A stretch of 64,000 nucleotides of DNA from Eledone cirrhosa. Taxonomy: Eukaryota. Positions 1,394 through 56,629 of the stretch are shown piece after piece. The position numbers and the translations under genes were made by a program. The first letter of the stretch is position 1; every line of letters starts with the position of its first letter. The stretch spans positions 278,628,001 to 278,692,000 of the forward strand of contig OZ024742.1 in assembly GCA_964016885.1 (NCBI GenBank), written 5' to 3'. Under the pieces are notes generated by a model. It saw only the letters and a program-made list of their open reading frames with translations, did not search any database and was not told the origin of the DNA.

Positions 1394-1395
<2 letters not shown>

Positions 1396-1572
1396 CGAAG
1401 GAAATGTGGTAAGGAACCAGGTGGACCATAACGCACCAAAGTACTCAATACTTAGGGTAGTAGAGTGGGTAATAGGAACGAGTAGGAACCCGACGACTGA
1501 GCTCAAGCCGTTTCGACGGCTAATTCATTAGCCGTCGAAACGGCTTGAGCTCAGCCGTCGGGGTCCTACTCG

Positions 1573-1577
<5 letters not shown>
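1394..1577. mobile_element. Fold-back PLE-like 3' fragment (family D) in (TA)n
   Basis: Inverted arms centred at about 1525; arm carries the HHR 3' half GAAAC-GGCT-TGAGCTC-AGCC-GTC; left arm about 80 nt longer; relatives at 15683, 29406 and 59610. Confidence 0.75.
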
Positions 1578-1640
<63 letters not shown>

Positions 1641-15490: not shown

Positions 15491-15682
15491 TTAAGTATAA
15501 TGTTTAAACTACCTCCACCAACGCCACTTTTGTGACGTAACGAATACACTTGTTGTTGACTTTGCTCTTGATGCTGATCATGATGATGATAATTATAATG
15601 TTTTATCACTACCACTTAAGTATTTTCAGCTTTCCTTGCTGCTTGTTTTACTGTGTGTTCATTTGTATTACTGTATATATAT

Positions 15683-15735
15683 AGTCCAGAAATAGCCGTC
15701 GAAACGGCTTGAACTCTGGCGTCGGGGTCATACTT

Positions 15736-15740
<5 letters not shown>
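15683..15740 (+). mobile_element. Single short arm of family D
   Basis: TCCAGAAATAGCCGTCGAAACGGCTTGAACTCTGGCGTCGGGGTC between TA tracts. Confidence 0.65.
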
Positions 15741-16385: not shown

Positions 16386-17662
<1,277 letters not shown>

Positions 17663-17809
17663 TATTTTCCGTTGTGTTGTAATATAAATATTACACACAG
17701 TAGATTATCAGCTCACGTAGAGTTTGCTCGACGGTTCCAGTTGTAGTTCCAAAAGTAATCCGGAGAAGAATAGAAAGATTTGAATGGATACAGTTTAGTT
17801 GAAAGGAAT

Positions 17810-17926
17810 TTATTGACACGTGTTTCTATAACAGTTACATAACCTAAAACAGCTATCTACAAACTGTTAGTTATGCAGACATTCAATATTTCAATGTTAT
17901 TATTTACTGTCATTTCATCAGAATAA
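17810..17926 (-). ncRNA. PLE-A hammerhead with long stem II
   Basis: Same motif as 35186-35305. Confidence 0.8.
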
Positions 17927-18514
17927 TATTACTGAGGACCTATTTAGTATTTATAGAGAATATTAGGAGGGAGGGGTGAAGTTGTTAGAAGAATAGTTGA
18001 AGGAGTGGTTTTTCGATAGCAGTGAGAATTCTTGGTGGCAGTGAGTAATTAGATTCCCATCTGTTGTTTTGACATTTTTTATAGAATATATTATTGGTTA
18101 TTTTTCTAAATCTATAGAAGGATTAGAGATAGTAAAGATATGCGTGGTTGGTTTTGTGTTTGCACTTAATTAACATTCAGACTTAAATTTTTCTTTCGAG
18201 TGTACGTATCCTTTCACCCACGCATTCACACACAAATGTATTTGCACACCTCTACAAAATACATATACTCACAATTCACATATTCATACTTACATATATA
18301 TACACATGCATACACATATATATACACACATGTATTCATGTACATACATACGCGCTCATGTGTATACATTTTCATACTCAACTTATCTTTATATACACAC
18401 GTATAGACACACACATATATACATACATACTCTAGTCCATGTGTACACACATACACATACATACACATCCATACACACATACATACATACACATATATAT
18501 ATATATATATACAT

Positions 18515-18571
<57 letters not shown>

Positions 18572-18882
18572 TTCACACATATACATATACACACACACAC
18601 ATATATATATATAAGCACTTTAATACATGAATACACTTACATCTAACTATACACATCAAACATATATATATATTTACTTATTTATATACATTTTCACATA
18701 TATATACATACTTATGGACGTTTTTAGACACATTCATTATCGCATATTTGTACCTATTCTCATCAGCATATCTTTTCATTATTAGTATGGTAATTTAAGG
18801 TTATTAATATATGTTGAGAAGAGATTGTTTTTATAATTTTCCAACTAGATTAAGGTTTATATAGTTGGGGGATGTCCCTCTT

Positions 18883-20820
18883 TTATGTAATATTCGGCTT
18901 GTAGTGGGAAAAAAGGGTTTTAGTTCTGTGACGGCAGAATAATGTTCGTTCAATTCTGTTATTCAGCAGTTTCTTCTTGTGTGTGATTATGTAATAAATC
19001 TCAAGATTACACAATTTGCAGAAATTTTGGCTCCTGGAAAAGCTTTGGGTTTTAGCTAATTTTTCCCATTTTAGGGTAAACTTTTGATTGCTATCCCTGA
19101 GCGGCCAAGCTTTTTCTGCTAAAGTTGTTATATTTCTTTGGCTCTGGTGTTTTATTGAGTAAGAATGCCTATAAAATCGAGATTTAAACGATGTTGCCGT
19201 TGATCCCACGTAATACCACTCGTTGCCTCCGGATTTAATGGTACACTTATAAATAATATTTTTTTCCAGGCAGTTATTGCCGAGGGGGCAGTTGTCAGGA
19301 TAGGTGCAGTTACAGTTGTGTACGTTGGGTTTTCTCTGGAGTAGTATTGCGGACGAACTTAGGTGTGGTTTATTTATGTTCTGTAGTGTATTGTCTACTG
19401 TTTTTTTTGAGTTCTTTGTACTTAAGTTCTTAGTGTTTTCGTTTAACCTTCTAGTATTGATCTTTTTTATGTGTTGTTCAAGGTTTAACGCTGTAGAGTA
19501 TGACAGTCTTATAGTGGTAGGGTTTAGGATTTTGTGGTATTTGTGTGATGTGGGAAAATGTCTTTTAATTATTTTAAAGAAGAGTACTGGTAAATTTGTA
19601 CTAATGGAGCTATTGTATTCGGGGTTATACCATAAGTACTCTTTGCATCGCTTTCTATTAGTTTTGTTTGTTGGTTTACTGGTGTGCATACTATGGTAGT
19701 GAGTGTGGTTTGGTGTTGTGTTATTATATCTACCTATGTGGGATTTATTTTGGGTGTTTTGATTGTTCCCATCTATGTACTCTATTTTGTTGAGGTAGCC
19801 TGCTTTACTAAGGGCGTTATCGTAGTACTCGGCGTGTTCCTTAAATACTTGTATGTTAGAAGATAGACCCGAGATTCTAAGGGAAATATTTTTAGGGATA
19901 GATTTAATTATAGAGATGGGGTGGTTAGACCCAACATTTACGTATTTGAGATTTTCATTCAATTTATGAAACGGTTTAATCAAACCAGAGTTTAAATTGA
20001 GTGTGACATCCAGGAAGTTAACTACTTTAAGGTTGTATTCATATGTTATAGTTAGTCCTATTTCGAGTAGTAGTTTTCTTATATCTTTGCGTAGTTTTTC
20101 TAGTTTTTGGTTATTAAGGTTTTTAGCTAGGAGGAGAACATCGTCGCGGTATATTCCGCCGTGGAGATTGCTGAATTTTTCCTGGAGTCTAAAGGCGATA
20201 AATAACCCCACAATATCAGTTATTTCCGCCGAATCGTTAGAGCCCATTGTTATGTCAAAGTTAGAGGGTCTATCTTTACGTACCCAATAACTGTTCTCAA
20301 ATTTGACTATAGTTTTCCTAGCTTCTAATATAATCTTAATTTCATCGTTTGTAAGGTCAGAGTTATCCTTAGCAAACTTAATGGCTCTATTCAAAGTTTC
20401 AGGTGATATCGATGAGTAATATTCATCGATATCAAACTGGATAAACTTAGATTTATTCTTATTGCTAATGCTATTAAACCATCTTATTGCTTCTTGGGTC
20501 TTCCCCCAGAGTTTAATGTTAACCTTAGCCTTAATTTGGGGGATGATTCTATCTAAGATATATTTGCTTATTTTACCTATATCTGATTTAGAGGGGCAGA
20601 TTAATCTAATTTTAGGGTCATTATCAAAGTTTACCTTGTGGTCCTTAAGATTGAAGGTGGGTACCGCCGGTAAGAGTGGTCCTGTCCTATCTTCGATTCC
20701 GAGATTTTTCACTATTTCGCATGCCTCATCATTGATGTGCTTAATGGTTACTTCACTCGTTTTTCTATATTTTTTATGTAATTCTTTTCGAATGAAGTTG
20801 TTGTATGTAGTGCAATCCAT
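18883..20820 (-). CDS. PLE reverse transcriptase + GIY-YIG endonuclease (main ORF part; Nematis-like by motif)
   Basis: QFDIDEYYSSI, FDITMGS, GIYRDD, NFLDVTL; WYNP; CNC-x5-CPLxxNC; NIIYKC..YYVGST..R; CKLC..CRH. Confidence 0.95.
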   Translation of the reverse strand: MDCTTYNNFIRKELHKKYRKTSEVTIKHINDEACEIVKNLGIEDRTGPLLPAVPTFNLKDHKVNFDNDPKIRLICPSKSDIGKISKYILDRIIPQIKAKVNIKLWGKTQEAIRWFNSISNKNKSKFIQFDIDEYYSSISPETLNRAIKFAKDNSDLTNDEIKIILEARKTIVKFENSYWVRKDRPSNFDITMGSNDSAEITDIVGLFIAFRLQEKFSNLHGGIYRDDVLLLAKNLNNQKLEKLRKDIRKLLLEIGLTITYEYNLKVVNFLDVTLNLNSGLIKPFHKLNENLKYVNVGSNHPISIIKSIPKNISLRISGLSSNIQVFKEHAEYYDNALSKAGYLNKIEYIDGNNQNTQNKSHIGRYNNTTPNHTHYHSMHTSKPTNKTNRKRCKEYLWYNPEYNSSISTNLPVLFFKIIKRHFPTSHKYHKILNPTTIRLSYSTALNLEQHIKKINTRRLNENTKNLSTKNSKKTVDNTLQNINKPHLSSSAILLQRKPNVHNCNCTYPDNCPLGNNCLEKNIIYKCTIKSGGNEWYYVGSTATSFKSRFYRHSYSIKHQSQRNITTLAEKAWPLRDSNQKFTLKWEKLAKTQSFSRSQNFCKLCNLEIYYIITHKKKLLNNRIERTLFCRHRTKTLFSHYKPNIT

Positions 20821-20872
20821 AGTGTACAGGTTTGATGTTTTGTCCGCTTTTACTACAATTCCTTTGGTGTTT

Positions 20873-21205
20873 TTAAGGTCGTCCAGTAGTTTTTTTTATA
20901 TCTTTCTGTAATTTGCTGTTGGTGTTGCGTCCTTTGAATTTAATTTTAAGGATTAAGTTCATAAGGTCCTGCTCAAATGCATCTAATAGTGGGTTGGTGG
21001 GTGGGTTTTTACAAGTCCTAAAACCGAATTTGTTGTTTACACCACTTTCTAATGTTAAGTTCATACGGCTTCTATCATAGTGGAGCGTTTTCCACCTGAC
21101 ACGTCGAATGAATTCATTAGTTTTTTGAATCATGCTCAATAAATATTCCTTTCTACCTTGGGTTGGTATGTTTTTGAGTGACATATCCAGGTAGTGTTTT
21201 TCCAT
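20873..21205 (-). CDS. N-terminal part of the same PLE ORF, offset by +1 at an A8 run
   Basis: FIRRVRWK..FGFRT..FEQDL; removing one A at 20890-20897 joins it to LLDDLKNTKGIVVKADKTSN (KADK motif), giving about 773 aa. Confidence 0.85.
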   Translation of the reverse strand: MEKHYLDMSLKNIPTQGRKEYLLSMIQKTNEFIRRVRWKTLHYDRSRMNLTLESGVNNKFGFRTCKNPPTNPLLDAFEQDLMNLILKIKFKGRNTNSKLQKDIKKTTGRP

Positions 21206-21423
21206 TGTTGTGGTTGCGTTTGGTGTGTGGGTTGCTCGACTTTACAGGAGGTAAATATACAGTATTTTCCGTTGTGTTGTAATATAAATATTACACACAG
21301 TAGATTATCAGCTCACGTAGAGTTTGCTCGACGGTTCCAGTTGTAGTTCCAAAAGTAATCCGGAGAAAAATAGAAAGACGTGTCAATAAATTCCTTTCAA
21401 CTAAACTGTATCCATTCAAATCT

Positions 21424-21461
<38 letters not shown>

Positions 21462-24421: not shown

Positions 24422-24502
<81 letters not shown>

Positions 24503-24688
24503 GATAAATCTACCAAAATGTACGGTAGTGTCCAATCCGTATGAAGAACTCAATGTAATCCGAATATCATGAAAAGAGAAGATGTATTCAAAAGTTATTT
24601 TTGATGAAAAATACAGGAAAACAGAGTCAAGATAAATTAATAAAAATAATGAATAAAAACAAAGAAACGGTTCCTTATATTAAAAAAT

Positions 24689-24826
24689 TCATCATTTTAC
24701 GATCGTTTCTAGGATATATATGTGTGTGTTGGTATGTATATCATATAGATCTATGTAAAATTTTTACAAACTATCAGAGGGAATATACATACCTACACGT
24801 ATATATGCTGTCTTCAGAAATAATGA
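24689..24826 (-). ncRNA. PLE-B hammerhead with 101-nt stem II
   Basis: Mirror of 29001-29138. Confidence 0.8.
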
Positions 24827-25527
24827 TATTTGTTCTTTGAAAAAAACCCAACAAAGATTTAATATAATAAGTCTGTTTGGGAACAGGTTTTGAATTGACC
24901 AATAGAAAGGTAGTAAGTGGTCAATATGATAGAATAGTAGTAATTGAACTTTAATTTAGGTGTAGAGGAAAGTAGATTTCAGTTTTGAATGGAAAGAGTA
25001 TAATGAATGAAAAGATTATTTTGAGGATGAAAATAGGTCAAGCCGGTAAAAGGTACACGAACATATGATGTTATAAACAAATAATGCTAATGTAAATATC
25101 TAAGGAGAATAACATTTTACGATAAATGTGTTAGTGAAAAATATCAATCTTATTTAAAACATAAGGAATTTACATCTATAAAAAGAAAATAAATTAATTA
25201 AATTGAAGGTATATTTATATTGATAAATTTATATTAATTCATATAGATATGATAAATAAGAGTTAGATGTAATTGAAGAATGCTGTTAAAAACGAAGGGA
25301 AAATAAATAAATTATAATAATTATAGATTATAAGGAATATAGATTCGTAACCTGAAATTAAAATAGTTTATATGTATACTTATTGGTATACATTTTAGGA
25401 AAAGATAGCTGTAAAAGGGAAATAAAATTATGCAGTTCATTAGTAGTAGAATATTAATTATAGGTTAACTAATTTTAAAAAAGTGTTATTATAATAATTT
25501 GTAAAGTGTATATTAATTAGGTTTATA

Positions 25528-26874
25528 ATATTTAAAAGTTCTTCTCAATTTAAGATTACATGATATAATTAATTCCTGTCGCTTATTTAATAGGATATCC
25601 ATAGATTTCATTATTTCAAAAAGTTCCTGGGAACATAATCTACATTCATATCTATTATTTTGATAAGCGGTGGCCCTTTTGAGCAAATTCCAGGTCAGGT
25701 TATAATCTATATTCCTTTTTCTATAATTATTAATTATTTCGGCTAAGGATGTTGTATTAGCTAATGCGGCATTTTTAAAACTGTGTTTGTGGGTATTAAA
25801 TCTTACTTTAAATTGGTTAGAAGTAGCTCCTATATATGAATAAGCTGAGTCCTTAGTGTTAATTCTACATTTATATACTATGTTATTAATAAGGCAATTT
25901 CCTTTTAATCGTCAATTTGCTTTGTTTCTACAGTTACAACCTTTCGTGAATGCTGTATCAGAGAAGATAGTCAAATTAGGTGTGGAATTTTCACGATTTG
26001 TTGTATGTGAATGAGATGGTGGTTTGCTGTGGTTTATTTTAGTATTATGGTTAGTATGATGTATTGGTGGTATATTCATGTTTTTTTTTACATTCATATC
26101 CATTATAGGCACTTATATTTTGTTGTATATTTTTGGTTGTTGAGTAGGAGAATTTAACCGTTGATCTATTTAAAATTTGATGGTATTTATGGTTTCGCGG
26201 GAAGTTTTTCTCTAGGATTGTAAAACATTATTTAGGTATATTATCTTTAATTTGTAGATTAAATGGAGCATTATACCAAGTAACTCTTCTATTACGGTTT
26301 CGATGTTGTTTATTATTTTTATAGGATGTATCCTGATGTTTATTAAGAGAATTAGTATTAGAGATTTTATTACACATATTTTTAGTTAGATTCATTGATT
26401 TAGGTGTTTTAGCCTGTTTATTAGGAATTTTGTTATTAACATATATTGGAACATTAGAATGAATGTTTTTTTTGAAAGTTACTATATTGTATATTAGAAG
26501 AGTTAGAGAAATTAAGTTTTATGTTGGTATTTTTGGGTATAGTGTGAGTGGCATTTAGGTGTGTATATTTCATTTGGTGTTTGTTGGTAATATTGGGTTG
26601 TATGTTTGTAGTGTTATTGGTACAAGGTAGGTATACTAATTTGTTTTTGTGGCCGCTTCTAGCTAAAGCTTCGTTATAAATGGTCGCATTTTATCAAATA
26701 CATCCTGGTTAGACGAAAGGTTAGAAATTCTGACTGAGATATTATATGCTAGGTTTTTAAGGATAGATTTAGGGTGATTAGATTGTGAGTGTATGTATTG
26801 TAAGTTTTGGTTAGGTTTATGGTAAGGTTGGTAGATACCCGTAGATAAGTCTACTGTTATATCAAGGAAATTAA
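25528..26874 (-). pseudogene. PLE-B RT thumb/linker/GIY-YIG, left arm
   Basis: NFLDIT..WYNAPF..CNCRNKAN*RLKGNC..NIVYKC..YIG; private frameshifts. Confidence 0.9.
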
Positions 26875-28244
26875 ATTTGAAAACACAAGTAAAGTAGTTA
26901 ATTTCCTTGATATAACATGAGACTTATCTACGGAAATCTCCCAACCTTACCATAAACCTAACCAAAACTTACAATACATACACTCACAATCTAATCACCC
27001 TAAATCTATCCTTAAAAAACCTAGCATATAATATCTCACTCAGAATGTCTAACCTTTCGTCTAACCAGGATGTATTTGATAAAAATGCGACCTTTTATAA
27101 CGAAGCTTTAGCCTGAAGCGGCCACAAAAACAAATTAGTATATATACCTTGTACCAATAACACTACAAACATACAACCCCATATTACCAACAAACTCCAA
27201 ATGAAATATACACACCTAAATGCCACTCACACTATTCCCAAAAATACCAACATAAAACTTAATTTCTCTAACTCTTCTAATATACAATATAATAACTTTC
27301 AAAAAACCATTCAACCTAATACTCCAATATATGTTAATAACAAAATTCCTAATAAACAGGCTAAAACACCTAAGTCAATGAATCTAACTAAAAATATGTG
27401 TAATAAAATCACTAATACTAATTTTCTTAATAAACATCAGGATACATCCTATAAAAATAATAAACAACATCGAAACCGTAATAGACGAGTTACTTGGTAT
27501 AATGCTCCATTTAATCTACAAATTAAAGATAATATATCTAAAATTTTTTTTACTATCCTAGAGAAAAACTTCCCGCCAAACCATAAATACCATCAAATTT
27601 TAAATAGATCAACGGTTAAATTCTCCTACTCAACAACCAAAAATATACAACAAAATATAAGTGCCTATAATGCATATAAATGTAAAAAAACCATGAATAT
27701 ACCACCAACGCATCATACTGACCATAATACTAAAATAAACCACAGCAAACCACCATCTCATTCACATACAACAAATCGTGAAAATTCCACACCTAATTTG
27801 ACTATCTCCTCTGATACAGCATTCACGAAAGGTTGTAACTGTAGAAACAAAGCAAATTGACGATTAAAAGGAAATTGCCTTATTAATAACATAGTATATA
27901 AATGTAGAATTAACACTAAGGACTCAACTTATTCATATATAGGAGCTACTTCTAACCAATTTAAAATAAGATTTAATACCCACAAACACAGTTTTAAAAA
28001 TGCCGCATTAGCTAATACAACATCCTTAGCTGAAATAATTAATAATTATAGAAAAAGGAATATAGATTATAACCTGACCTGGAGTGTGCTCAAAAGGGCC
28101 ACCCCTTATCAAAATAATAGATATGAATGTAGATTATGTTCCCAGGAACTTTTTGAAATAATGAAATCTAAGGATATCCTATTAAATAAGCGACAGGAAT
28201 TAATTATATCATGTAAACATAAATTGAGAAGAACTTTTAAATAG
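26875..28244 (+). pseudogene. PLE-B RT thumb/linker/GIY-YIG, right arm
   Basis: KVVNFLDIT, SNHP, WYNAPF, NIVYKC..SYIGATS..RFNTH, CRLC..LNKRQE..CKH; frame open from 27201 to 28244 except TGA at 27858. Confidence 0.9.
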
Positions 28245-29000
28245 TATAAACCTAATTAATATACACTTTACAAATTATTATAATAACACTTTTTTTAAAA
28301 TTAGTTAACCTATAATTAATATTCTACTACTAATGAACTGCATAATTTTATTTCCCTTTTACAGCTATCTTTTCCTAAAATTTATACCAATAAGTATACA
28401 TATAAACTATTTTAATTTCAGGTTAAGAATCTATATTCCTTATAATCTATATAAATTTATTATTTCTCACTAATAAATTTATCCCCCCCCCCCCCCGCAT
28501 AATAATAATAATTATTTTTTTTATTTTCCCTTCGTTTTTAACAGCATTCTTCAATTACATCTAACTCTTATTTATCATATCTATATGAATTAATATAATT
28601 TTATCAATATAAATATACCTATCAATTTAATTAATTTATTTTCTTTTTATAGATGTAAATTCCTTATGTTTTAAATAAGATTGATATTTTTCACTAACAC
28701 ATTTATCGTAAAATGTTATTCTCCTTAGATATTTACATTAGCATTATTCTTTTATAACATCAAATTTTCGTGTACCTTTTATCGACTTGACCTATTTTCA
28801 TCCTCAAAATAATCTTTTCATTCATTATACTCTTTCCATTCAAAACTGAAATCTGCTTTCCTCTACCCCTAAATGAAAGTTCCATTACTACTATTCTACC
28901 ATCTTGAACATTTTCTACCTTTCTATTGGTCAATTCAAAACCTGTTCCCAAACAGACCTATTATATTAAATCTTTGTTGGTTTTTTTCAATAAACAAATA

Positions 29001-29138
29001 TCATTATTTCTGAAGACAGCATATATACGTGTAGGTATGTATATTCCCTCTGATAGTTTGTAAACATTTTACATAGATCTATATGATATACATACCAACA
29101 CACACATATATATCCTAGAAACGATCGTAAAATGATGA
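29001..29138 (+). ncRNA. PLE-B type I hammerhead with 101-nt branched stem II
   Basis: TCATTATTT/AAATGATGA stem I; CTGAAGA(29010); GGTATGTATAT/ATATACATACC within stem II; GAAA-CGATCG-TA. Confidence 0.85.
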
Positions 29139-29189
29139 TTTTGTTAATATAAGGAACTGTTTCTTTGTTTTTATTCATTATTTTTATTA

Positions 29190-29243
<54 letters not shown>

Positions 29244-29260
29244 ATATATCAGAGCACCAA

Positions 29261-29607
<347 letters not shown>

Positions 29608-29659
29608 TATATATAATAGGTATATTTATGGAGATGCATATATACTTATGTATGAAGGA

Positions 29660-33640: not shown

Positions 33641-33687
<47 letters not shown>

Positions 33688-33721
33688 AGATTTGAATGGA
33701 TACAGTTTAGTTGAAAGGAAT

Positions 33722-33841
33722 TTATTGACACGTGTTTCTATAACAGTTACATAACCTAAAACAGCTGCTATCTACAAACTTTTAGTTATGCAGACATTCA
33801 ATATTTCAATGTTATTATTTACTGTCATTTCATCAGAATAA
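33722..33841 (-). ncRNA. PLE-A hammerhead (inverted arm)
   Basis: Same motif as 35186-35305. Confidence 0.8.
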
Positions 33842-34397
33842 TATTACTGAGGACCTATTTAGTTTTTATAGAGAATATTAGGAGGGAGGGGTGAAGTTGT
33901 TAGAAGAATAGTTGAAGGAGTGGTTTTTCGATAGCAGTGAGAATTCTTGGTGGCAGTGAGTAATTAGATTCCCATCTGTTGTTTTGACATTTTTTATAGA
34001 ATATATTATTGGTTATTTTTCTAAATCTATAGAAGGATTAGAAATAGTAAAGATATGCGTGGTTGGTTTTGTGTTTGCACTTAATTAACATTCAGACTTA
34101 AATTTTTCTTTCAAGTGTACGTATCCTTTCACCCACGCATTCACACACAAATATATTTGCACACCTCTACAAAATACATATATTCACAATTCACATATTC
34201 ATACTTACATATATATACACATGCATACACATATATATACACACATGTATTCATGTACATACATACGCGCTCATGTGTATACATTTTCATACTCAACTTA
34301 TCTTTATATACACACGTATAGACACACACATATATACATACATACTCTAGTCCATGTGTACACCCATACACATACATACACATCCATATACACATAT

Positions 34398-34520
<123 letters not shown>

Positions 34521-35185
34521 CACTTTAATACATGAATACACTTACATCTAACTATACACATCAAACATATATATATATTTACTTATTTATATACATTTTC
34601 ACATATATACACATACTTATGGACGTTTTTAGACACATTCATTATCTCATATTTGTACCTATTCTCATCAGCATGACTAGAGTATGTATGTATATATGTG
34701 TGTGTCTATACGTGTGTATATAAAGATAAGTTGAGTATGAAAATGTATACACATGAGCGCGTATGTATGTACATGAATACATGTGTGTATATATATGTGT
34801 ATGCATGTGTATATATATGTAAGTATGAATATGTGAATTGTGAATATATGTATTTTGTAGAGGTGTGCAAATATATTTGTGTGTGAATGCGTGGGTGAAA
34901 GGATACGTACACTTGAAAGAAAAATTTAAGTCTGAATGTTAATTAAGTGCAAACACAAAACCAACCACGCATATCTTTACTATCTCTAATCCTTCTATAG
35001 ATTTAGAAAAATAACCAATAATATATTCTATAAAAAATGTCAAAACAACAGATGGGAATCTAATTACTCACTGCCACCAAGAATTCTCACTGCTATCGAA
35101 AAACCACTCCTTCAACTATTCTTCTAACAACTTCACCCCTCCCTCCTAATATTCTCTATAAAATCTAAATAGGTCCTCAGTAATA

Positions 35186-35305
35186 TTATTCTGATGAAAT
35201 GACAGTAAATAATAACATTGAAATATTGAATGTCTGCATAACTAAAAGTTTGTAGATAGCAGCTGTTTTAGGTTATGTAACTGTTATAGAAACACGTGTC
35301 AATAA
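35186..35305 (+). ncRNA. PLE-A type I hammerhead with 91-nt branched stem II (5' pLTR)
   Basis: TTATT/AATAA stem I; CTGATGA(35191); ATGACAGT/ACTGTTAT stem II base; GAAA-CACGTG-TC. Confidence 0.85.
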
Positions 35306-35509
35306 ATTCCTTTCAACTAAACTGTATCCATTCAAATCTTTCTATTTTTCTCCGGATTACTTTTGGAACTACAACTGGAACCGTCGAGCAAACTCTACGT
35401 GAGCTGATAATCTACTGTGTGTAATATTTATATTACAACACAACGGAAAATACTGTATATTTACCTCCTGTAAAGTCGAGCAACCCACACAGCAAACGCA
35501 ACCACAACA

Positions 35510-37820
35510 ATGGAAAAACACTACCTGGATATGTCACTCAAAAACATACCAACCCAAGGTAGAAAGGAATATTTATTGAGTATGATTAAAAAAACTAATG
35601 AATTCATTCGACGTGTCAGGTGGAAAACGCACCACTATGATAGAAGCCGTATGAACTCAACATTAGAAAGTGGTGTAAACAACAAATTCGATTTAGGACT
35701 TGTAAAAACCCACCCACCAACCCACTATTAGATGCATTTGAGCAGGACCTTATGAACTTAATCCTTAAAATTAAATTCAAAGGACGCAACACCAACAGCA
35801 AATTACAGAAAGATATAAAAAAAACTACTGGACGACCTTAAAAACACCAAAGGAATTGTAGTAAAAGCGGACAAAACATCAAACCTGTACACTATGGATT
35901 GCACTACATACAACAACTTCATTCAAAAAGAATTACATAAAAAATATAGAAAAACGAGTGAAGTAACCCTTAAGCACATCAATGATGAGGCATGCGAAAT
36001 AGTGAAAAATCTCGGAATCGAAGATAGGACAGGACCACTCTTACCGGCGGTACCCACCTTCAATCTTAAGGACCACAAGGTAAACTTTGATAATGACCCT
36101 AAAATTAGATTAATCTGCCCCTCTAAATCAGATATAGGTAAAATAAGCAAATATATCTTAGATAGAATCATCCCCCAAATTAAGGCTAAGGTTAACATTA
36201 AACTCTGGGGGAAGACCCAAGAAGCAATAAGATGGTTTAATAGCATTAGCAATAAGAATAAATCTAAGTTTATCCAGTTTGATATCGATGAATATTACTC
36301 ATCGATATCACCTGAAACTTTGAATAGAGCCATTAAGTTTGCTAAGGATAACTCTGACCTTACAAACGATGAAATTAAGATTATATTAGAAGCTAGGAAA
36401 ACTATAGTCAAATTTGAGAACAGTTATTGGGTACGTAAAGATAGACCCTCTAACTTTGACATAACAATGGGCTCTAACGATTCGGCGGAAATAACTGATA
36501 TTGTGGGGTTATTTATCGCCTTTAGACTCCAGGAAAAATTCAGCAATCTCCACGGCGGAATATACCGCGACGATGTTCTCCTCCTAGCTAAAAACCTTAA
36601 TAACCAAAAACTAGAAAAACTACGCAAAGATATAAGAAAACTACTACTCGAAATAGGACTAACTATAACATATGAATACAACCTTAAAGTAGTTAACTTC
36701 CTGGATGTCACACTCAATTTAAACTCTGGTTTGATTAAACCGTTTCATAAATTGAATGAAAATCTCAAATACGTAAATGTTGGGTCTAACCACCCCATCT
36801 CTATAATTAAATCTATCCCTAAAAATATTTCCCTTAGAATCTCGGGTCTATCTTCTAACATACAAGTATTTAAGGAACACGCCGAGTACTACGATAACGC
36901 CCTTAGTAAAGCAGGCTACCTCAACAAAATAGAGTACATAGATGGGAACAATCAAAACACCCAAAATAAATCCCACATAGGTAGATATAATAACACAACA
37001 CCAAACCACACTTACTACCATAGTATGCACACCAGTAAACCAACAAACAAAACTAATAGAAAGCGATGCAAAGAGTACTTATGGTATAACCCCGAATACA
37101 ATAGTTCCATTAGTACAAATTTACCAGTACTCTTCTTTAAAATAATTAAAAGACATTTTCCCACATCACACAAATACCACAAAATCCTAAACCCTACCAC
37201 TATAAGACTGTCATACTCTACAGCGTTAAACCTTGAACAACACATAAAAAAGATCAATACTAGAAGGTTAAACGAAAACACTAAGAACTTAAGTACAAAG
37301 AACACAAAAAAAACAGTAGACAATACACTACAGAACATAAATAAACCACACCTAAGTTCGTCCGCAGAGAAAACCCAACGTACACAACTGTAACTGCACC
37401 TATCCTGACAACTGCCCCCTCGGCAATAACTGCCTGGAAAAAAAAAATATTTATAAGTGTACCATTAAATCCGGAGGCAACGAGTGGTATTACGTGGGAT
37501 CAACGGCAACATCGTTTAAATCTCGATTGTATAGGCATTCTTACTCAATAAAACACCAGAGCCAAAGAAATGTAACAACTTTAGCAGAAAAAGCTTGGAC
37601 GCTCAGGGGTAGCGATCAAAAGTTTACCCTAAAATGGGAAAAATTAGCTAAAACCCAAAGCTTTTCCAGGAGCCAAAATTTCTGCAAATTGTGTAATCTT
37701 GAGATTTATTACATAATCACACACAAGAAGAAACTGCTGAATAACAGAATTGAACGAACATTATTCTGCCGTCACAGAACTAAAACCCTTTTTTCCCACT
37801 ACAAGCCGAATATTACATAA
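35510..37820 (+). pseudogene. PLE-A RT + GIY-YIG ORF, disrupted
   Basis: Nearly identical to copy 1; extra 1-nt deletion at about 35690, deletion of about 11 nt at about 37366, and the same A8 offset at 35817-35824. Confidence 0.92.
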
Positions 37821-38087
37821 AAGAGGGACATCCCCCAACTATATAAACCTTAATCTAGTTAGAAAAATATAAAAACAATCTCTTCTCAACATATATTAAT
37901 AACCTTAAATTACCACTCTAATAATGGAAAGATATGCTGATGAGAATAGGTACAAATATGAGATAATGAATGTGTCTAAAAACGTCCATAAGTATGTATA
38001 TATATGTGAAAATGTATATAAATAAGTAAATATATATATATGTTTGATGTGTATAGTTAGATGTAAGTGTATTCATGTATTAAAGTG

Positions 38088-38213
<126 letters not shown>

Positions 38214-38780
38214 TATGTATGTATATATGTGTATATGGATGTGTATGTATGTGTATGTGTGTACACATGGACTAGAGTATGTATGTATATATGTGTGTGT
38301 CTATATATGTGTATATAAAGATAAGTTGAGTATGAAAATGTATACACATGAGCGCGTATGTATGTACATGAATACATGTGTGTATATATATGTGTATGCA
38401 TGTGTATATATATGTAAGTATGAATATGTGAATTGTGAATATATGTATTTTGTAGAGGTGTGCAAATATATTTGTGTGTGAATGCGTGGGTGAAAGGATA
38501 CGTACACTTGAAAGAAAAATTTAAGTCTGAATGTTAATTAAGTGCAAACACAAAACCAACCACGCATATCTTTACTATCTCTAATCCTTCTATAGATTTA
38601 GAAAAATAACCAATAATATATTCTATAAAAAATGTCAAAACAACAGATGGGAATCTAATTACTCACTGCCACCAAGAATTCTCACTGCTATCGAAAAACC
38701 ACTCCTTCAACTATTCTTCTAACAACTTCACCCCTCCCTCCTAATATTCTCTATAAAAACTAAATAGGTCCTCAGTAATA

Positions 38781-38900
38781 TTATTCTGATGAAATGACAG
38801 TAAATAATAACATCGAAATATTGAATGTCTGCATAACTAAAAGTTTGTAGATAGCAGCTGTTTTAGGTTATGTAACTGTTATAGAAACACGTGTCAATAA
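38781..38900 (+). ncRNA. PLE-A hammerhead (3' pLTR)
   Basis: CTGATGA(38786)..GAAA(38884)-CACGTG-TC. Confidence 0.85.
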
Positions 38901-40387
38901 ATTCCTTTCAACTAAACTGTATCCATTCAAATCTTTCTATTTTTCTCCAGATTACTTTTGGAACTACAACTGGAACCGTCGAGCAAACTCTACGTGAGCT
39001 GATAATCTACTGTGTGTAATATTTATATTACAACACAACGGAAAATACTGTATATATATATATATATATATATATATCCACCGACTTCATAATAAGAAGT
39101 CCTCCTCCATCCCTGCTATCAGGAACGTGTCTAGATAGATAGATAGATCGATATATAGGGGTCGTAACTTCCAGTTACTGTAGGTTCACACATTATAACT
39201 TTGCCTTTCATTCTTACGGGGTCGATAAAATAAAGCTCCAGTAATGCACAGGGGTAATTGCTGGCCTTCTGCCAAAAGTAGAAACATTATTATTATTATC
39301 ATTATTATATATACATATCAACACAATCTCTCTCTCTCTATATATATATATATACACATGTATATCTACGAAACCTACATCAAACTACAACTCTAATATC
39401 TTTAAAATGACACTTTAGATTATGTGGACATTGTTATACACTCTTCGCGGGAATACTTATATGGAAAATTCATAGCTTGAATAAGTCTGCTGCAACGGAA
39501 AGGAGAAAAACGACAACAATACTGCTATCATTATAAAGTACTTGAATATAATCTTGGGTATATTATTTTGCCATACTAATTCCGCAACTATTACGGGAAG
39601 CAATTTAACTGTCATTTCCTATAATGAATCTATCTTTTCAACAACCATTGTCATATTTCAACAAGCTATCGTCTGCCTTTAATCATTTAATCATCAGTCA
39701 AATCATTCCTTCGGTTATTCCCTTACAATACTTGACTGCGTGATATGCCCCGTAACATGAAATAATGCTATATATTAACAATCATCATGAATGTTGTTGT
39801 CTGGATAAATAAACTATCTTCTGCCCTGTAAAACTGGAGATATTTGATTGAATAAACATGTCGTCTGCGTTATCATTCAATGTGTTCGTCTTGATTAAAA
39901 TATGACGAAAATAAAAGCAAAAACTCATTTCTATTATCAGTGAAACGTTATTCGGACTTCATAAAGCTGTCGTTTGCATTATAATTCCACAGCTTATTGG
40001 TTAAAACATAAAGCTATTCTCTCTATATGATATTTATCAATAGAGATTGAGCGTCAGTAACACGTTTGTTGAAACTCGTAATCGGAGAGAGGTGCTGTTT
40101 TGTTGTGCTATGACGGTTCATAGGATTAAGCAATCTCGTTAATTTTTTTAAGGTGACGAAAGAAACTCTGAAAAATAAAAATGAATAAATAAAATTAAAA
40201 AACACCACTCCTCTGCAAATCTTGCCGCTTAACCGCACCCTTAAAATAGTATAACGAACGTTGATGTTTTCAATGGATATAATTCTAGACGAAATTTTAA
40301 CCGCACCCAAGAAGTTGATGAAACCAGTCACTTTCATCATAAAATGGCGCCAGTCCATTTATGAGTAGGGTATATCGTGAGCGCACA

Positions 40388-41286: not shown

Positions 41287-41511
41287 AGAAAATGTTCGCT
41301 CTCATGGCTGAATTCAATAAATGTAAATCTGAGTTTTTCGAATATTAATAATAACATTCGATTCGTTTGCAATTATGCATACAAGCCTCAATGTTATAGC
41401 CATGTCAGTAGAATGAACACTTCATTCTTGAAGAATGAAGTGTTCATTCTACTGGCATGGCTATAAAATTGAGGCTTGTTTGCATAATTGCAATAAATAT
41501 TCGAAAAACTA
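41283..41511. mobile_element. Fold-back 3' fragment of the family at 57093-57346
   Basis: Inverted arms around about 41430; arm sequence AATGAAG(T/G)GTTCA..CTACTG..CATGGCT..AAATTGA.GCTTG also at 57239-57345. Confidence 0.75.
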
Positions 41512-43212: not shown

Positions 43213-44535
43213 TTACATTTTATATATATATCTAAAAGTTGAGTTTAAACGATGTTTACAAAAACTAAATAAATTATTACGCAAATTAATAGAGTTCTTA
43301 CTTTTTAGTATAAAGAATATTTCTTCAACGCAAAGGGAGCAATTTTCGATAGAGCTGTGTATGAAGGAGTTTTGGAGATAATTTCCCAAGATAAAGAATA
43401 GTTAATATTCTTGGATTTTAAGTTCCATAATAAGTTGGATAGAGAAGTTGAAGATTGTTTACCAATATTCGTAAAGGAACATGTATGTTTATTAAAACGA
43501 GATTTGAAGTCTGTGGAAGTAGAGCCGACATAGGTAAAGGAATTTTCTTTTGTTTTGACATTACAATGTATACTATATTTTTAACTAAACAGTTATTATT
43601 TAGAGGACAGTTAGATTTATTTTTACATTTACATTTATCTGAATTTATATTATTGGGAGCCGTAACATTATATTGGATATTGCCTGAGGTATTAATGTTA
43701 TTCTGATTAGGTTTTAAGTTTATATTATTAATTCTATTAATATTCTGCGCTAAATTCATAGTGGTGGAATATGAGAGTTTAATAGTATGTCTATTAAAGA
43801 TTGAGTAATATCTGTGTGTCTTAGGAAAACACTTATCTAGAGCTTTAAAAAATAGTTTAGCTATTGGAGTTTTAATACTTAATGAGAAAGGGGGAGCGAA
43901 CCATAATATATTTCTAGTTCTATTTCTTCTTTTGATTTTCGACTTAGTGCAAGGTTTCCTATTATTATATTTATAGTTATGGTTAATTGACACATTCTTA
44001 TTATCAATGTATTTAATTTCATTACTATAGCCTGCTCTACTTAACGCTTCGTTATGATATTGTGCCTCATCTTCAAATATATTCTTATTCGCTGAAATTC
44101 TAGAAATACGTTGCTGCACAGAATTTACAATAGTGTTTTTAACGGATCTGGGGTGATTGGAATTAAAGTTAACATACTTTAAATTCTCATTGATTTTATG
44201 AAATGGATAATAAAGACCAGTAATATGGTTTAAAGTTACATCTAAAAAATGAACTATTTTATAATTATTCTCTACTTCTACTTTAAGATTAACGCTATTA
44301 AAAAATTGTATAATTTCTTTTCTTTTCCTATTTATTTCGCAATTATTATTATTTTCAATAAGCAATAGCATATCGTCCCGATATAAACCACCGGTCATCT
44401 CTGGTATTTTCCTATGTAAAGTATTGTTAATAAAAAGGCCCACAAGATCCATTAATTGCGCCGAGTCTGATGATCCCATAGTGATATCGAAATTGTTATC
44501 CCTATCTGCTCTAGTCCAAAGGTGGTTGCTAAATT
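43213..44535 (-). pseudogene. PLE family C, 5'-truncated RT + GIY-YIG
   Basis: NFDITMGS, GLYRDD, HFLDVTL, WFAPPF, CKC-x5-CPLNNNC, NIVY; frameshift at about 43557; ends CKHRLNSTFRYIYKM*. Confidence 0.9.
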
Positions 44536-45254
44536 TAATTAATAATTATATTCTTAAGATAAATTTTTTAACTTTATAACAATTATGACTTCTTATAAAA
44601 TAACCTATCGTTTATGTTTTAATTATAATCTTAAGATAAATTTATGACTTCTTATAACATAACATATGGTTTATGTTTTAATTATATTCTTAAGATAACA
44701 TTTTTTAACTTTATAACATTTATGACTTCACACAAAAAATGTTTTGAAAAAAAAAAAAAATTTTTTTGAAAGAACATTTTTTGAAGGTTTTTTTTATGTA
44801 TCCTTGGAGTCATTTGAGTTCTTAAAATATCACTTCTAACTTCCTTTATACTTCCTTACTGTTTTTATAATATAATTAAATAGCTATTCCTTTGTAAACT
44901 CTCGTAAATTTTCATAAATTTGGAATTATTTGGATGTTTAAGTTTTGACTTACAACTATTAATAAATATAATTTTGCCAAACTTACTTTAATCAAATAAA
45001 CTATACTAGATTTTCTCTAATGTAAAATACTATATATTTATTGAAATAATTTATAATCCATAACATACACATCTAAACGAATATATTATTACTATTACAT
45101 CCTAATATAATATAAATACTTCTGTTTTAATTTTAATTTTTAATTTTTAATATTAATATTAAATTAAATTTTTAATATTAAGGTAAATTTTAATCTTTAA
45201 TTTTGATTTTTAATTTTTAACTTTAATTTTTTCAACTTATCATTATCAATATTA

Positions 45255-52143: not shown

Positions 52144-52200
<57 letters not shown>

Positions 52201-52313
52201 TAATTATTTTACCGCCAATTCACCCCCCAAATGATGTAGATAATATTTGTAGAAAATTCATCAGATGATACAAACATTCGTACACGAAAATACACACACG
52301 AACATATATATAA

Positions 52314-52364
<51 letters not shown>

Positions 52365-52837
52365 CGTGTGTGCGTGTATTTTTGTGTACGAATGTTTGTA
52401 TCATCTGATGAATTTTTTACAAATATTATCTACATCATTTGGGCGGTGAATTGGCGGTAAAATAATTACTGCCCTTTACATTCTGAGTTCAAAACAGGCT
52501 AAGATTGATTTCGATTTTCATCATAACGGGTCTATAAAATAAAGTAAGCCGGAAATCACAAGTGCCTCAGGCTGGTGTCATGATACGCAGTAGATCCACT
52601 GAGAGTTAAGAACACTGTGTTGTTGTTACGGCACACATCTAAATGATTGACATTCTGAAGCTGTTTAAATGATTACTGTTCATCTTGTCACCAGATAATA
52701 ATTTCTGAGACTTAGAGAGTGTTTTAAAAGCATTAGTCACTATAATTTAAAGATTTACAGATGTTTCCCTCTGTATTTTTCGTCCCTATTTCGTTCAACT
52801 GGCATAAGCCAGGACTCTGAATTATCGTCACTACTTA

Positions 52838-53956: not shown

Positions 53957-55690
53957 CTGTATATATAGATATTATTACTTTTCTTGTCTTTAATTCTTTT
54001 TAAATTTTCATTAAAAAGTAGAGCTCGTTTCATGATTGTTTCAAACAACGTGACAGAGATCAATGGGTGAAATCTAGATAACAACAATTCTAAAGAATTA
54101 CATACATCAATGTTACTAATGCTAATTGAATCTACAGAATTCCTGATAAATAATCACTTTCTTTGAAAGAAAACAGTAAGCGTTCGGAGATCTTTAACTT
54201 AAACACTTAAACCCAAGCAAGCTAATGATTACAGCTTACAAATGTATAATTTATAATCTAGAATTTGTAGCCTTGACATTAGTTCTTCGGAGATGTTCTC
54301 TTTCTCTTCACAGTTTTACAAACTTTAAATGAAATATTTACATTTGCCATTAGTGAGCTGGCATAGTCGTTAGAGGCCAATGGTAGATTTTTTGCCTCTT
54401 TGTGAAGTGAATTTAAAATCATTGTAGATCGGTTCAATTATTCAGGCCCTCTGCGCTCTTCAAATCGTCGTTGTCTTTTAACCTTTCGGGGGCCGACAAA
54501 ATAGAGTATTAGACAGGACACTTGAGCGTTAGACAAATATCTTGAGATATCCTTGCCATGTGGTGAAGTAAATGAATCATTTCTTTGATCTGGCACTGTG
54601 CGCTATGAGTTTAATCCTGCAGAGGTCAACTTTGACTTTTAACTTTCAGTATCAGCCCCCGTCGGTAGATTGGTGCAATTGTTCTGGAGCTCTGCACCGA
54701 GAGCTCAAATCGATATTGTTTTTTATTCTTTCGGAGTCGACAACATAGAGCGTTAAACATTAATTTGAAATGGCTCTCTGCGTATGAGTTTAATCCTGCA
54801 GAGGCCAACTTTAACTTTCAACTTTTCAGGCTGATAAAATAAAATACACAGTCTAGGAGAGTGCATTGATGAAATTGTGGAGACTTGATGCCTTGCGGTG
54901 TATCCATCGATCTATTATGTTCTGAGTCCGACATCGATGCCAATGGTGATACGCTGTATCGAATATTAACTTTCTTCTTGGACAACATCAATAGTACTAA
55001 GAGATGAGACCTCCCTACATGAGCGACAGTTGGCCTTTCCTAAAACATCCTTGCGTTTGAAGCTGAAATTTCTAGGTGCAGATCAATGGTCGAATGAGAC
55101 ATAAGGGGTTGCCGAATATTAAAATATGCCGAGAGGCTGGCATTAATATTGATTTCGAAATTAAGCTCAACACCAGCTATTTTGGGCGAGGGGAGAGTTG
55201 TTTATATCAACCCCAGTTCGTGACCGGTACTTTACTTTACGACGTCGGAGGGATGAAAGGAAATATATGAAACCGTAGAGTACAAGCAAATGTATCAATT
55301 GTGTGGGTGTGACTTGGTGCGCGAATGTATATGTATGTGTCTGCATGAAACAAAAACAATAAACATTTCTGATATCATGCAACCAGAATAAGATGTGTTG
55401 TTTGTGTTTGTGATATTCATTATAGAGGCTGTAGAGCTGGAAATACTTGAGGAAATAGATTAGTGCTACCAATGAATATGTTCACATGATTTATTTAATT
55501 TATATCCCTGTGTTTATTGAGAAAAGTCGCACAATTTCAATATATATGCCTCCGTGGTATTTTCTTCGTGGTTATAAGAGGCTTAGCTCTGTTTCTCGAC
55601 CGTTATATCGCGTGACTATCTCCCCCTCCGCCTTTTGGGATTCTTTCTCACGTCGTGTAGACGCGTTCTTGAGACTAGTAAAATGAGGTA

Positions 55691-55778
55691 TCCTCTTGAT
55701 AAGTCGGCAGACCTCGCAAGGACTCTATATCTCTGATATATTGTTTTTGTTTATGCCACGAAACTACGTAGTCGAGGA
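55691..55778 (+). ncRNA. Type I hammerhead, U3-A8 core
   Basis: TCCTC-TTGATAA-GT.GGCA.GAC..GTT..TGCC-AC-GAAA-CTACGTAG-TC-GAGGA. Confidence 0.85.
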
Positions 55779-56281
55779 ATTTAGGAACAGTTTAGGTATG
55801 ATACATTTTATTACTAATTATATCTAAATGTTTCTTCTCTCTTCATAATGTATTTTTAACTCTGATACTGGTTCAGTCTGGTTCAAACTGAATTGGTCTG
55901 TCCCAGTCGTTCATTGAGCAACATCGGTGAAGTTGGCACCCTTAACTCACAGTTGGGTGCGGATGCATTCATGTATATATGTGTGTGTCCGCATGTATCT
56001 GTGTGTTTCTAAATATATTAATAACTCCCTCTGGTCGAGCAATCTTTGAAGTGTGGGGACAACTGGAAAGCTTCCATTACTCATACTTCTCGCCTTCTTC
56101 ACTACCTCTTCTACGGCCTCGATATGAATACCCCCTCCGCCTCCGTGGTATTTTCTTCGTGGTTATAAGAGGCTTAGCTCTGTTTCTCGACCGTTATATC
56201 GCGTGACTATCTCCCCCTCCGCCTTTTGGGATTCTTTCTCACGTCGTGTAGACGCGTTCTTGAGACTAGTAAAATGAGGTA

Positions 56282-56369
56282 TCCTCTTGATAAGTCGGCA
56301 GACCTCGCAAGGACTCTATATCTCTGATATATTGTTTTTGTTTATGCCACGAAACTACGTAGTCGAGGA
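56282..56369 (+). ncRNA. Type I hammerhead, U3-A8 core (second copy)
   Basis: Identical to 55691-55778. Confidence 0.85.
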
Positions 56370-56629
56370 ATTTAGGAACAGTTTAGGTATGATACATTTT
56401 ATTACTAATTATATTTAAATGTTTCTTCTCTCTTCATAATGTATTTTTAACTCTGATACTGGTTCAGTCTGGTTCAAACTGAATTGGTCTGTCCCAGTCG
56501 TTCATTGAGCAACATCGGTGAAGTTGGCACCCTTAACTCACAGTTGGGTGCGGATGCATTCATGTATATATGTGTGTGTCCGCATGTATCTGTGTGTTTC
56601 TAAATATATATATATATATATATATATAT

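What the first reader, a model, noticed from the sequence alone, without database searches (positions are those of the whole stretch)
21370..21429. Independent PLE-A insertions start their inverted arm at the same base
Seen: both copies begin (TA)n-TAGAAAGATTTGAATG (21429 on -, 33683 on +), although the inverted lengths differ (about 52 vs 990 bp). Both 3' ends stop at GGAAAATACTGTA, 113 nt further on. The copy 1 junction falls in the HHR stem III palindrome through ATAGAAA microhomology. In copy 2 the inverted and direct arms overlap by about 670 bp, unlike classical L1 twin priming. Inference: two fixed priming sites, possibly on two RNAs or on both pLTRs.
Basis: partly seen in the sequence, partly recalled or inferred. 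Interest (0 to 1): 0.7.

Follow-up and report, generated by a model that had tools for sequence, protein, structure and literature searches.

The report
Twin hairpins mark retroelement's two ends
The two fixed ends of this Penelope-like jumping gene are the already known 'tail' signature, but each end sits four bases in front of its own copy of a small conserved hairpin, repeated twice in distant relatives too, which likely tells the reverse transcriptase where to start copying.

Summary
Observation confirmed. Both insertions are a Hydra-clade Penelope-like element in (TA)n. The inverted arms start at one base (short end), the main arms end 113 nt further on (long end), and the copies come from different source lineages. 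This scan also noted such palindromic PLE insertions on other DNA (e1-7858806).

What I did not find described: each end lies 4 nt 5' of its own copy of a bulged hairpin (CUC-stem...2-nt bulge-GAG). In relatives of 32-39% protein identity the hairpin occurs twice between hammerhead and ORF (21 of 29 leaders; shuffles 0.02). Its upper stem covaries, and 9 of 14 mapped ends lie 3-6 nt before hairpin 1 or 2. Tail length therefore equals hairpin spacing (115 nt here, 52-83 in relatives, against 30-40 published).

Likely mechanism: each hairpin positions an RT, probably of a dimer, and both nicked target strands prime. Copy 1's short arm may alternatively be a collapsed longer palindrome.

The parts
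17658..21378 (-). PLE-A copy 1, main arm: starts 8 nt before the short site, then tail, ORF, 3' pLTR, long end at 17658
21378..21428 (+). Copy 1 inverted arm, 51 nt, from hammerhead stem III to the short end
21429..21459 (.). (TA)n target flank of copy 1, short-end side
21327..21365 (-). Hairpin 1 in copy 1 leader
   Evidence: descriptor hit
21235..21250 (-). Hairpin 2 in copy 1 leader
18883..21205 (-). Copy 1 RT-endonuclease ORF; N-terminal frame (ATG 21205, KNIP and RWK motifs) separated from the 670-aa RT/EN frame by a frameshift in an A run
17727..17765 (-). Hairpin 1 inside the tail of copy 1's 3' pLTR (hairpin 2 is not part of the 3' pLTR)
33644..33682 (.). (TA)n target flank of copy 2, short-end side
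33683..34674 (-). Copy 2 inverted arm, 992 nt (reverse complement of 37934-38939)
34675..35457 (+). Copy 2 5'-truncated upstream pLTR including the tail; overlaps the inverted arm by 671 nt
35186..35305 (+). Type I hammerhead motif: 5-bp stem I, 91-nt stem II, palindromic 8-nt stem III, predicted cut after 35300 (also at 38781-38900, and on - in copy 1's 3' pLTR and copy 2's inverted arm)
   Evidence: descriptor scan, fold; cleavage not tested; no hammerhead family among the Rfam matches
35345..35457 (+). 113-nt tail between short end (35344, ambiguous to 35345) and long end (35457, ambiguous to 35460)
35350..35388 (+). Hairpin 1: CUC/GAG, 2-nt 3' bulge, C-G G-C G-C upper stem; 4 nt after the last base shared with the short end
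35465..35480 (+). Hairpin 2: CUC/GAG, 2-nt 3' bulge, C-G U-A upper stem; 4 nt after the last base shared with the long end
35510..37820 (+). Copy 2 RT-endonuclease ORF, broken by frameshifts
37934..39052 (+). Copy 2 3' pLTR region with internal microsatellite, hammerhead, short-site equivalent 38939 and long end 39052
39053..39077 (.). (TA)n target flank of copy 2, long-end side

Best explanation
The two fixed ends of this Hydra-clade Penelope-like element each lie 4 nt in front of their own copy of a conserved bulged hairpin, and these hairpins likely act on the template RNA as docking sites that set where reverse transcription starts, so that the two nicked strands of a (TA)n target would prime two cDNAs, one from each site. 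Shown: the two ends, the duplicated hairpin, its constant offset, its covariation, and the pairing of one short with one long end per two-armed insertion. Inferred: the hairpin folds in RNA and binds the RT, probably one subunit of a dimer per hairpin; 3-5 nt of TA pairing fine-tunes the start; the hairpin lies 3' of the start and is not copied, so the tail is simply the distance between hairpins. Also inferred: hairpin 2 exists only at the pLTR-ORF junction, so long-ended full-length copies need a more-than-unit template (tandem transcript, circle or template jump); the two cDNA 3' ends join by microhomology wherever they stop. In copy 1 the short-site cDNA would have stalled at the hammerhead after 51-60 nt and joined the other strand at the short site. 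In copy 2 it would have run 992 nt, and 671 nt were copied twice, from two template copies or by strand displacement.
For: Same offset (4 nt) at all four PLE-A ends. In the window, 8 ends of seven other families or copies measured by script give 5, 5, 5, 6, 6, 10, 10 and 16 nt to the hairpin; the large values are cut short by a mismatch in old copies. Relatives: 33 of 80 loci had a usable leader, 29 distinct; 21 have two motifs, 5 one, 3 none; in 100 shuffles 0.02 leaders had two. Upper stem, which was not part of the search pattern, in 64 hairpins from 32 leaders: Watson-Crick pairs 60, 45 and 35 of 64 against 35, 19 and 16 shuffled, with 0 of 2000 shuffles reaching them, and this strongly only in the 2-nt-bulge register; it holds within hairpin 1 and, for pairs 2-3, within hairpin 2. 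9 of 14 mapped ends in relatives lie 3-6 nt before hairpin 1 (5) or hairpin 2 (4); rough binomial P 4e-10 to 1e-6. Either site serves either arm (L037). Contig depth in X6 steps 1687, 721, 405 across the two sites, so short ends seem at least as common as long ends (weak). Published for the anole element PAc: two internal RT start sites bound the tail, RNA 3' of them (to +172) is required, both strands are nicked and extended, a dimer is predicted (PMC11167929).
Against: No biochemistry or RNA data for this clade. PLE-A's hairpins lack the closing G-C pair and the strict 3' core of relatives (the strict pattern found none), and free folding of hairpin 1 gives another structure. G-U versus A-C counts are too few to say whether the RNA or a DNA strand folds. 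2 of 14 mapped ends fall inside the hammerhead (66 and 87 nt away), and 3 more are at 9, 13 and -5 nt. The 3-6 nt window and the motif were defined on these same data, and some loci are related. Most two-armed insertions in the window have both arms truncated at almost the same point, which snap-back synthesis explains more simply. On a single RNA, cDNA from the long site would cover hairpin 1, so the order of events is unresolved.
Confidence: 0.65

Rival explanations
1. The hairpins are read on a DNA intermediate: one cDNA is primed, snaps back on itself to build the inverted arm, and the GIY-YIG endonuclease cuts or resolves the intermediate beside a hairpin, so at least the short end is a cut or stop site and not a priming site.
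For: Near-perfect head-to-head palindromes dominate the window (B, D1-D3, E, F, I), several centred in hammerhead stem II. One short plus one long end per insertion follows automatically. Self-priming was proposed in PMC3846280 and endonuclease-mediated resolution in PMC8557442; the D. virilis endonuclease needed the tail for recognition, as cited in PMC11167929. The folding strand was not determined.
Against: The same motif at the same offset at both ends suggests one reaction at both. Solo and ORF-bearing copies end at the short site (15682-15739; L005, L018, L023, L036, L072), and short ends are not rarer than long ends in X6. PAc RT starts at both tail boundaries in vitro.
Confidence: 0.2
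2. Sub-question, copy 1 only: it was inserted with a long inverted arm like copy 2, and the palindrome later collapsed by replication slippage, leaving 51 nt. The shared short end is still an independent event, but the junction then says nothing about priming or the hammerhead.
For: The 7-nt word at the junction is the direct repeat closest to the base of a copy-2-type hairpin among 44 diagonals with a repeat of 7 nt or more. Collapse explains why the direct arm starts at the short site.
Against: Older and longer palindromes in the window have survived (PLE-B, 2.3-kb arms, 94-96% alike; copy 2 itself). L037 shows that a 47-nt inverted arm can coexist with a longer direct arm. The same microhomology is available for joining two cDNA ends.
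Confidence: 0.35
3. The hairpins serve another step (RNP assembly, translation or hammerhead folding), and the ends are set only by short TA matches between the (TA)n primer and the RNA nearby.
For: Both ends have TA overlap with the target (3 nt short, 5 nt long), and the long end is one of two 5-nt alternating TA stretches in 35301-35520.
Against: 13 positions in that 220-nt stretch offer 3 nt of TA match, yet only the two next to hairpins are used. Some mapped ends in relatives join non-(TA)n flanks and keep the offset (L018, L023, L033, L064).
Confidence: 0.1
4. Copy 1 is a DNA-level duplicate or deletion product of copy 2 (template switching between (TA)n arrays), so the shared start is one event seen twice.
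For: The copies lie 12 kb apart, are about 99% alike, and share an 8-A run with a frameshift that contigs of X1, X2 and X6 lack.
Against: Five alleles of copy 1 occur in other family members but not in copy 2; each copy has private changes; the flanks are unrelated; a third locus with the short end exists in X2.
Confidence: 0.04

Closest known systems
Hydra clade of C-terminal-endonuclease Penelope-like elements (Craig et al. 2021, PMC8557442)
   Same: RWK, DKT, CxCx5C linker, CxxC and CxH, no CCHH, (TA)n target, hammerhead; one Repbase member is noted with a 966-nt inverted 5' copy and an octopus member with four copies ending at one site (supplement rows).
   Different: Unit about 3.6 kb (clade generally under 3 kb), hammerhead stem II of 91 nt, tail 113 nt; no paired hairpins mentioned in the sections or supplement rows I saw.
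PLE 'tail' and two internal RT start sites of anole Poseidon PAc (Frangieh et al. 2024, PMC11167929)
   Same: Two fixed ends bounding an optional extension; starts internal to the RNA, downstream of the hammerhead; RNA 3' of the starts needed; uncleaved RNA used (all arms here cross the cut site).
   Different: Tail 113 nt, not 30-40; sites lie before the ORF start, not inside the ORF; 3-5 nt of primer-template TA match is present here; PAc is described with one AC-rich stem-loop, not a hairpin repeated once per start site.
Inverted pLTR plus partial tandem of D. virilis Penelope and Adineta Pen2a (PMC2377424 Fig. 1C legend; PMC3846280)
   Same: Copy 2 is this arrangement: inverted arm of variable length, truncated upstream copy, full copy, tail on one end only.
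   Different: Longer tail; no target-site duplication can be read inside (TA)n.
L1 twin priming (Ostertag and Kazazian 2001; seen here only as described in PMC2246262, details from my own knowledge)
   Same: Both ends of the break prime; copy 1's direct arm begins where the inverted arm starts.
   Different: The second site is fixed and marked by a cis element, and arms usually overlap extensively (671 nt in copy 2, 2.3 kb in PLE-B).

Membership tests
Hydra-clade PLE | N-terminal RWK motif | tested here: met
   RRVRWKT in the N-terminal frame
Hydra-clade PLE | DKG motif modified to DKT | tested here: met
Hydra-clade PLE | C-terminal GIY-YIG-type endonuclease without CCHH, preceded by CxCx5C | tested here: met
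   CNCTYPDNC, then YKC...YYVG with one cysteine; read by motif, Pfam gave no RT or GIY-YIG hit
Hydra-clade PLE | CxxC and CxH near the conserved E and N | tested here: met
   CKLC and CRH
Hydra-clade PLE | Insertion into (TA)n | tested here: met
   all four ends
Hydra-clade PLE | Hammerhead motif in the pLTR | tested here: met
   type I core with palindromic stem III and unusually long stem II; activity not tested
Hydra-clade PLE | Phylogenetic placement with named Hydra reference proteins | not tested
   named reference sequences were not fetched; homologues found were almost all unnamed
PLE tail / two RT start sites | Extension present at one end of an inverted-repeat insertion, with fixed boundaries | tested here: met
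   both PLE-A copies and eight other two-armed insertions in the window
PLE tail / two RT start sites | Tail of 30-40 bp | tested here: not met
   113 nt here; about 70-167 nt in other window families; hairpin spacing 52-83 in relatives
PLE tail / two RT start sites | Ends coincide with RT initiation sites | not testable with these tools
   needs in vitro assay; shown only for PAc
L1-type twin priming | Direct part begins where the inverted part was primed, little overlap | tested here: inconclusive
   met by copy 1 (8-9 nt duplicated), not by copy 2 (671 nt overlap)
L1-type twin priming | Second priming site varies between insertions | tested here: not met
   same base in both copies and in an X2 contig

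The most novel reading that the evidence does not exclude
Hydra-clade PLEs carry an undescribed, twice-repeated bulged RNA hairpin that is the RT-positioning element: each copy programs one internal start a few bases upstream, an RT dimer uses both at once to prime from the two target strands, and this accounts for the tail, its length, the inverted arms and the mobilisation of ORF-less units that keep only hammerhead plus both hairpins (such as 55548-56609). It would be a minimal, portable address for internal initiation by a telomerase-related RT.
Probability: 0.5. Interest if true: 0.72.

Novelty: new variant of a known kind. Interest (0 to 1): 0.55.

Why it matters
How PLEs choose their internal start sites and why insertions carry a tail on one end are open questions in the two papers that address them. 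A small covarying hairpin present once per end gives a concrete cis element to mutate, move or transplant, predicts tail length from sequence alone, and gives a way to call ends and non-autonomous partners of these elements. PLE RTs are the sister group of telomerase, so a structure that fixes where the template starts is of interest beyond this family. The finding as first written (same start of the inverted arm) is by itself known.

Tried and rejected
No assembly is held for the window, so no genome-wide census of PLE-A ends could be made. No RNA holder was listed. Read-laying used contigs only and showed 22 of 161 loose-end rows; no inversion joint like copy 1's appeared among the joints listed, and two X6 joints near the short site could not be interpreted. 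An exact 24-base pattern found nothing in metagenome contigs. Rfam listed no hammerhead family for the window stretch, mostly microsatellite-driven matches, and nothing at gathering score in 9 related loci. Pfam did not recognise RT or endonuclease. RNAalifold on a MAFFT alignment of 59 hairpins predicted no pair, because variable loops split the 5' strand in the alignment; the covariation result rests on my end-anchored count. Free folding of the tail was no better than shuffles. Rejected: hammerhead cleavage as the source of either end (ends are 44 and 157 nt downstream of the cut, and arms cross the cut); Naiad or Poseidon membership (domain order, motifs); copy 1 as a derivative of copy 2. 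Left out of the two-armed count: 41317-41493 and 52198-52471 (no clear long end or hairpin), and inverted pairs of a dispersed repeat that do not touch (TA)n. Most of the 80 related loci are collapsed or circularly assembled and hold no inverted arm.

Full report
What the element is. The window holds two copies of one retroelement, at 17658-21428 (minus) and 33683-39052 (plus), about 99% alike. The protein has RWK, DKT, YRDD, a CxCx5C linker, a C-terminal YKC...YYVG endonuclease without CCHH, and CxxC and CxH motifs. These are the features listed for the Hydra clade of Penelope-like elements (PMC8557442 section 11). Placement is by motifs, not by a tree with named references. Both copies sit in (TA)n and carry a type I hammerhead motif with a palindromic stem III and a 91-nt stem II. 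The host was not identified and no assembly was available.

The observation. Confirmed as written, within one base. Both inverted arms start at the short end (35344 in leader coordinates), both main arms stop at the long end (35457), 113 nt apart; the arms are 51 and 992 nt; copy 2's arms overlap by 671 nt. The copies are independent. Flanks are unrelated, and copy 1 shares five alleles with contigs of other runs that copy 2 lacks. Contigs from four runs add a third short-end junction into (TA)n (X2) and six long-end junctions (X1 one, X3 five). In X6 the contigs break at both sites, with depth 1687, 721 and 405. That call showed 22 of 161 loose-end rows, so it is no census.

What is already known. 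Inverted 5'-truncated arms and a 30-40 bp tail on one end are standard for PLEs (PMC8557442, PMC3846280, PMC2377424). For the anole element PAc the tail was shown to be the stretch between two internal RT start sites, with both target strands nicked and extended, RNA 3' of the sites required, and a dimer predicted (PMC11167929). The same rule is visible in eight other two-armed insertions in this window (B, D1-D3, E, F, G, I): one arm abuts (TA)n at a short end and the other runs about 70-167 nt further. Three copies of family D share both ends within a few bases. Two further inverted pairs were left out as unresolved.

What is added. I fetched the 80 best of 477 confirmed related loci (32-39% protein identity). 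Between the hammerhead cut and the ORF they carry two copies of a short motif, GCUC(C/U)...GAGCAC. Of 33 loci with a usable leader, 29 were distinct: 21 have two copies, 5 one (mostly truncated leaders) and 3 none, against 0.02 leaders with two in shuffles. A second definition found paired motifs in 36 of 80 loci, spaced 52-83 nt. The motif is a hairpin: CUC pairs with GAG, a 2-nt bulge follows on the 3' side, and the next three pairs, which were not in the search pattern, are Watson-Crick in 60, 45 and 35 of 64 cases against 35, 19 and 16 after shuffling; other registers give at most one weak excess. The signal holds when hairpins 1 and 2 are counted apart, except the first pair of hairpin 2, which hardly varies. 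The shuffle ignores relatedness, and RNAalifold found nothing on a plain alignment that split the 5' strand.

Ends track the hairpins. Fourteen 3' ends could be mapped against an internal copy in the related loci: nine lie 3-6 nt before the CUC of hairpin 1 (five) or hairpin 2 (four), three lie at 9, 13 and -5 nt (the last over-extended by a chance match, 3 nt by eye), and two lie inside the hammerhead. The rough binomial chance is 4e-10 to 1e-6, with the window chosen after looking. PLE-A has both hairpins in a relaxed form (35350-35388 and 35465-35480), and all four ends are 4 nt from them. Hairpin spacing is 115 nt, which matches the tail. A descriptor tuned on these examples gave 21 hits in the window against 2 in shuffles; 14 of the 21 belong to PLE ends or leaders of families A, B, D, E, G, I and J, and 7 do not or were not checked. 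Tail length varies mainly with the loop of hairpin 1 and the spacer. Family J (55548-56609) is an ORF-less partial tandem that keeps a hammerhead-like core and both hairpins and ends 6 nt before hairpin 2.

Likely mechanism. Each hairpin lies 3' of the start it marks and is not copied by the cDNA that starts there, which fits a docking site on the template RNA and the PAc requirement for RNA 3' of the starts. All ten two-armed insertions counted pair one short with one long end; two RNAs choosing freely would give this about once in a thousand, so one leader used at both hairpins by a dimer is the simplest reading, though snap-back synthesis predicts the same pairing. Because hairpin 2 is absent from the 3' pLTR, long-site priming must occur at the pLTR-ORF junction, and full-length copies need a tandem transcript, a circle or a jump. 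All arms cross the hammerhead cut, so the template was uncut or rejoined there. These steps are inferred (confidence 0.65). The main rival is recognition of the hairpins on a DNA intermediate with snap-back and endonuclease resolution (0.2); it is helped by the many palindromes whose arms stop at nearly the same point and hurt by solo and ORF-bearing copies that end at the short site.

Copy 1's junction. The direct arm begins 8-9 nt from the short site and joins the 51-nt arm at an 8-of-9 microhomology inside hammerhead stem III. This fits a short cDNA stalled at the hammerhead and joined to the other strand. It also fits collapse of a longer palindrome, since the same word is the repeat nearest the base of a copy-2-type hairpin. 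Survival of older, longer palindromes nearby argues mildly against collapse; I put it at about 0.35.

Literature seen. PMC11167929: parts 1-2 of 4 of the text (abstract, results, start of methods), text of supplement 1, term search of three supplements; figures, including Fig. S2 with its RNA structure, were not visible and may bear on novelty. PMC8557442: abstract, sections 3, 11, 18, passages, and supplement rows found with three terms; figures not visible. PMC3846280, PMC2377424, PMC4209133, PMC7229834, PMC8969392, PMC2246262: passages. bioRxiv 10.64898/2026.07.22.740005: part 1 of 5 and passages. Ten searches listed no paper whose title or abstract start describes paired hairpins at PLE ends, and the passages read mention none. 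[quoted passage not shown] Earlier scan notes describe palindromic PLE stumps and hammerhead-edge truncation in other genomes; none matched the hairpin words or this sequence.

Verdict. The flagged feature is real and is the known PLE tail in a long form. The repeated hairpin at a fixed distance from each end is well supported as a sequence and structure fact, appears undescribed as far as I could search, and makes the origin of the tail directly testable. New variant of a known kind; interest 0.55.

Noticed in passing
window 24500-29195: Second Hydra-like family (PLE-B): head-to-head insertion with 2.3-kb arms truncated at almost the same point in the RT region, hammerhead with 101-nt stem II, 132-nt tail, hairpin 1 with a 72-nt interior 5 nt after the short end.
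   Followed up: partly
window 55548-56609: ORF-less unit of about 590 nt in partial tandem with a hammerhead-like core and both hairpins 165 nt apart; ends in (TA)n 6 nt before hairpin 2. Looks like a non-autonomous partner or retrozyme-like element.
   Followed up: partly
window 1395-1579, 29407-29608, 59605-59805, 15682-15739: Family D: three palindromic insertions centred in what looks like hammerhead stem II, sharing both ends, plus a solo copy that ends at the short site.
   Followed up: partly
window 35186-35305 and 29000-29140: Hammerheads of PLE-A and PLE-B have 91- and 101-nt stem II regions, whereas the first hit in each of 57 related loci had at most 36 nt.
   Followed up: partly
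window about 35815-35822 and 20894-20901: Both PLE-A copies share an 8-A run that shifts the frame between the N-terminus and RT; contigs of X1, X2, X6 and part of X3 have seven. Shared defective source, recurrent slippage or assembly error; unresolved.
   Followed up: partly
window 37934-37990: Copy 2's inverted arm stops 3 nt before a second, degenerate hammerhead-like stretch (CUGAUGA with a short matching stem but no GAAA).
   Followed up: no
window 43228-44545 (-): Third, decayed Hydra-like PLE, about 40% identical in protein to PLE-A.
   Followed up: no
L037:717-900: Distant relative with a 47-nt inverted arm ending 9 nt before hairpin 2 (long-type site) and a direct arm starting at the 5' edge of hammerhead stem I.
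   Followed up: partly
window 35318-35349 (run X6 contigs): Two joints near the short site with 10-15 inserted letters resembling nearby element sequence, possibly repeated re-priming; kind of joint not given.
   Followed up: no
window 52198-52471, 41317-41493: Two more palindromic inserts beside or near (TA)n whose second end or hairpin could not be resolved.
   Followed up: no
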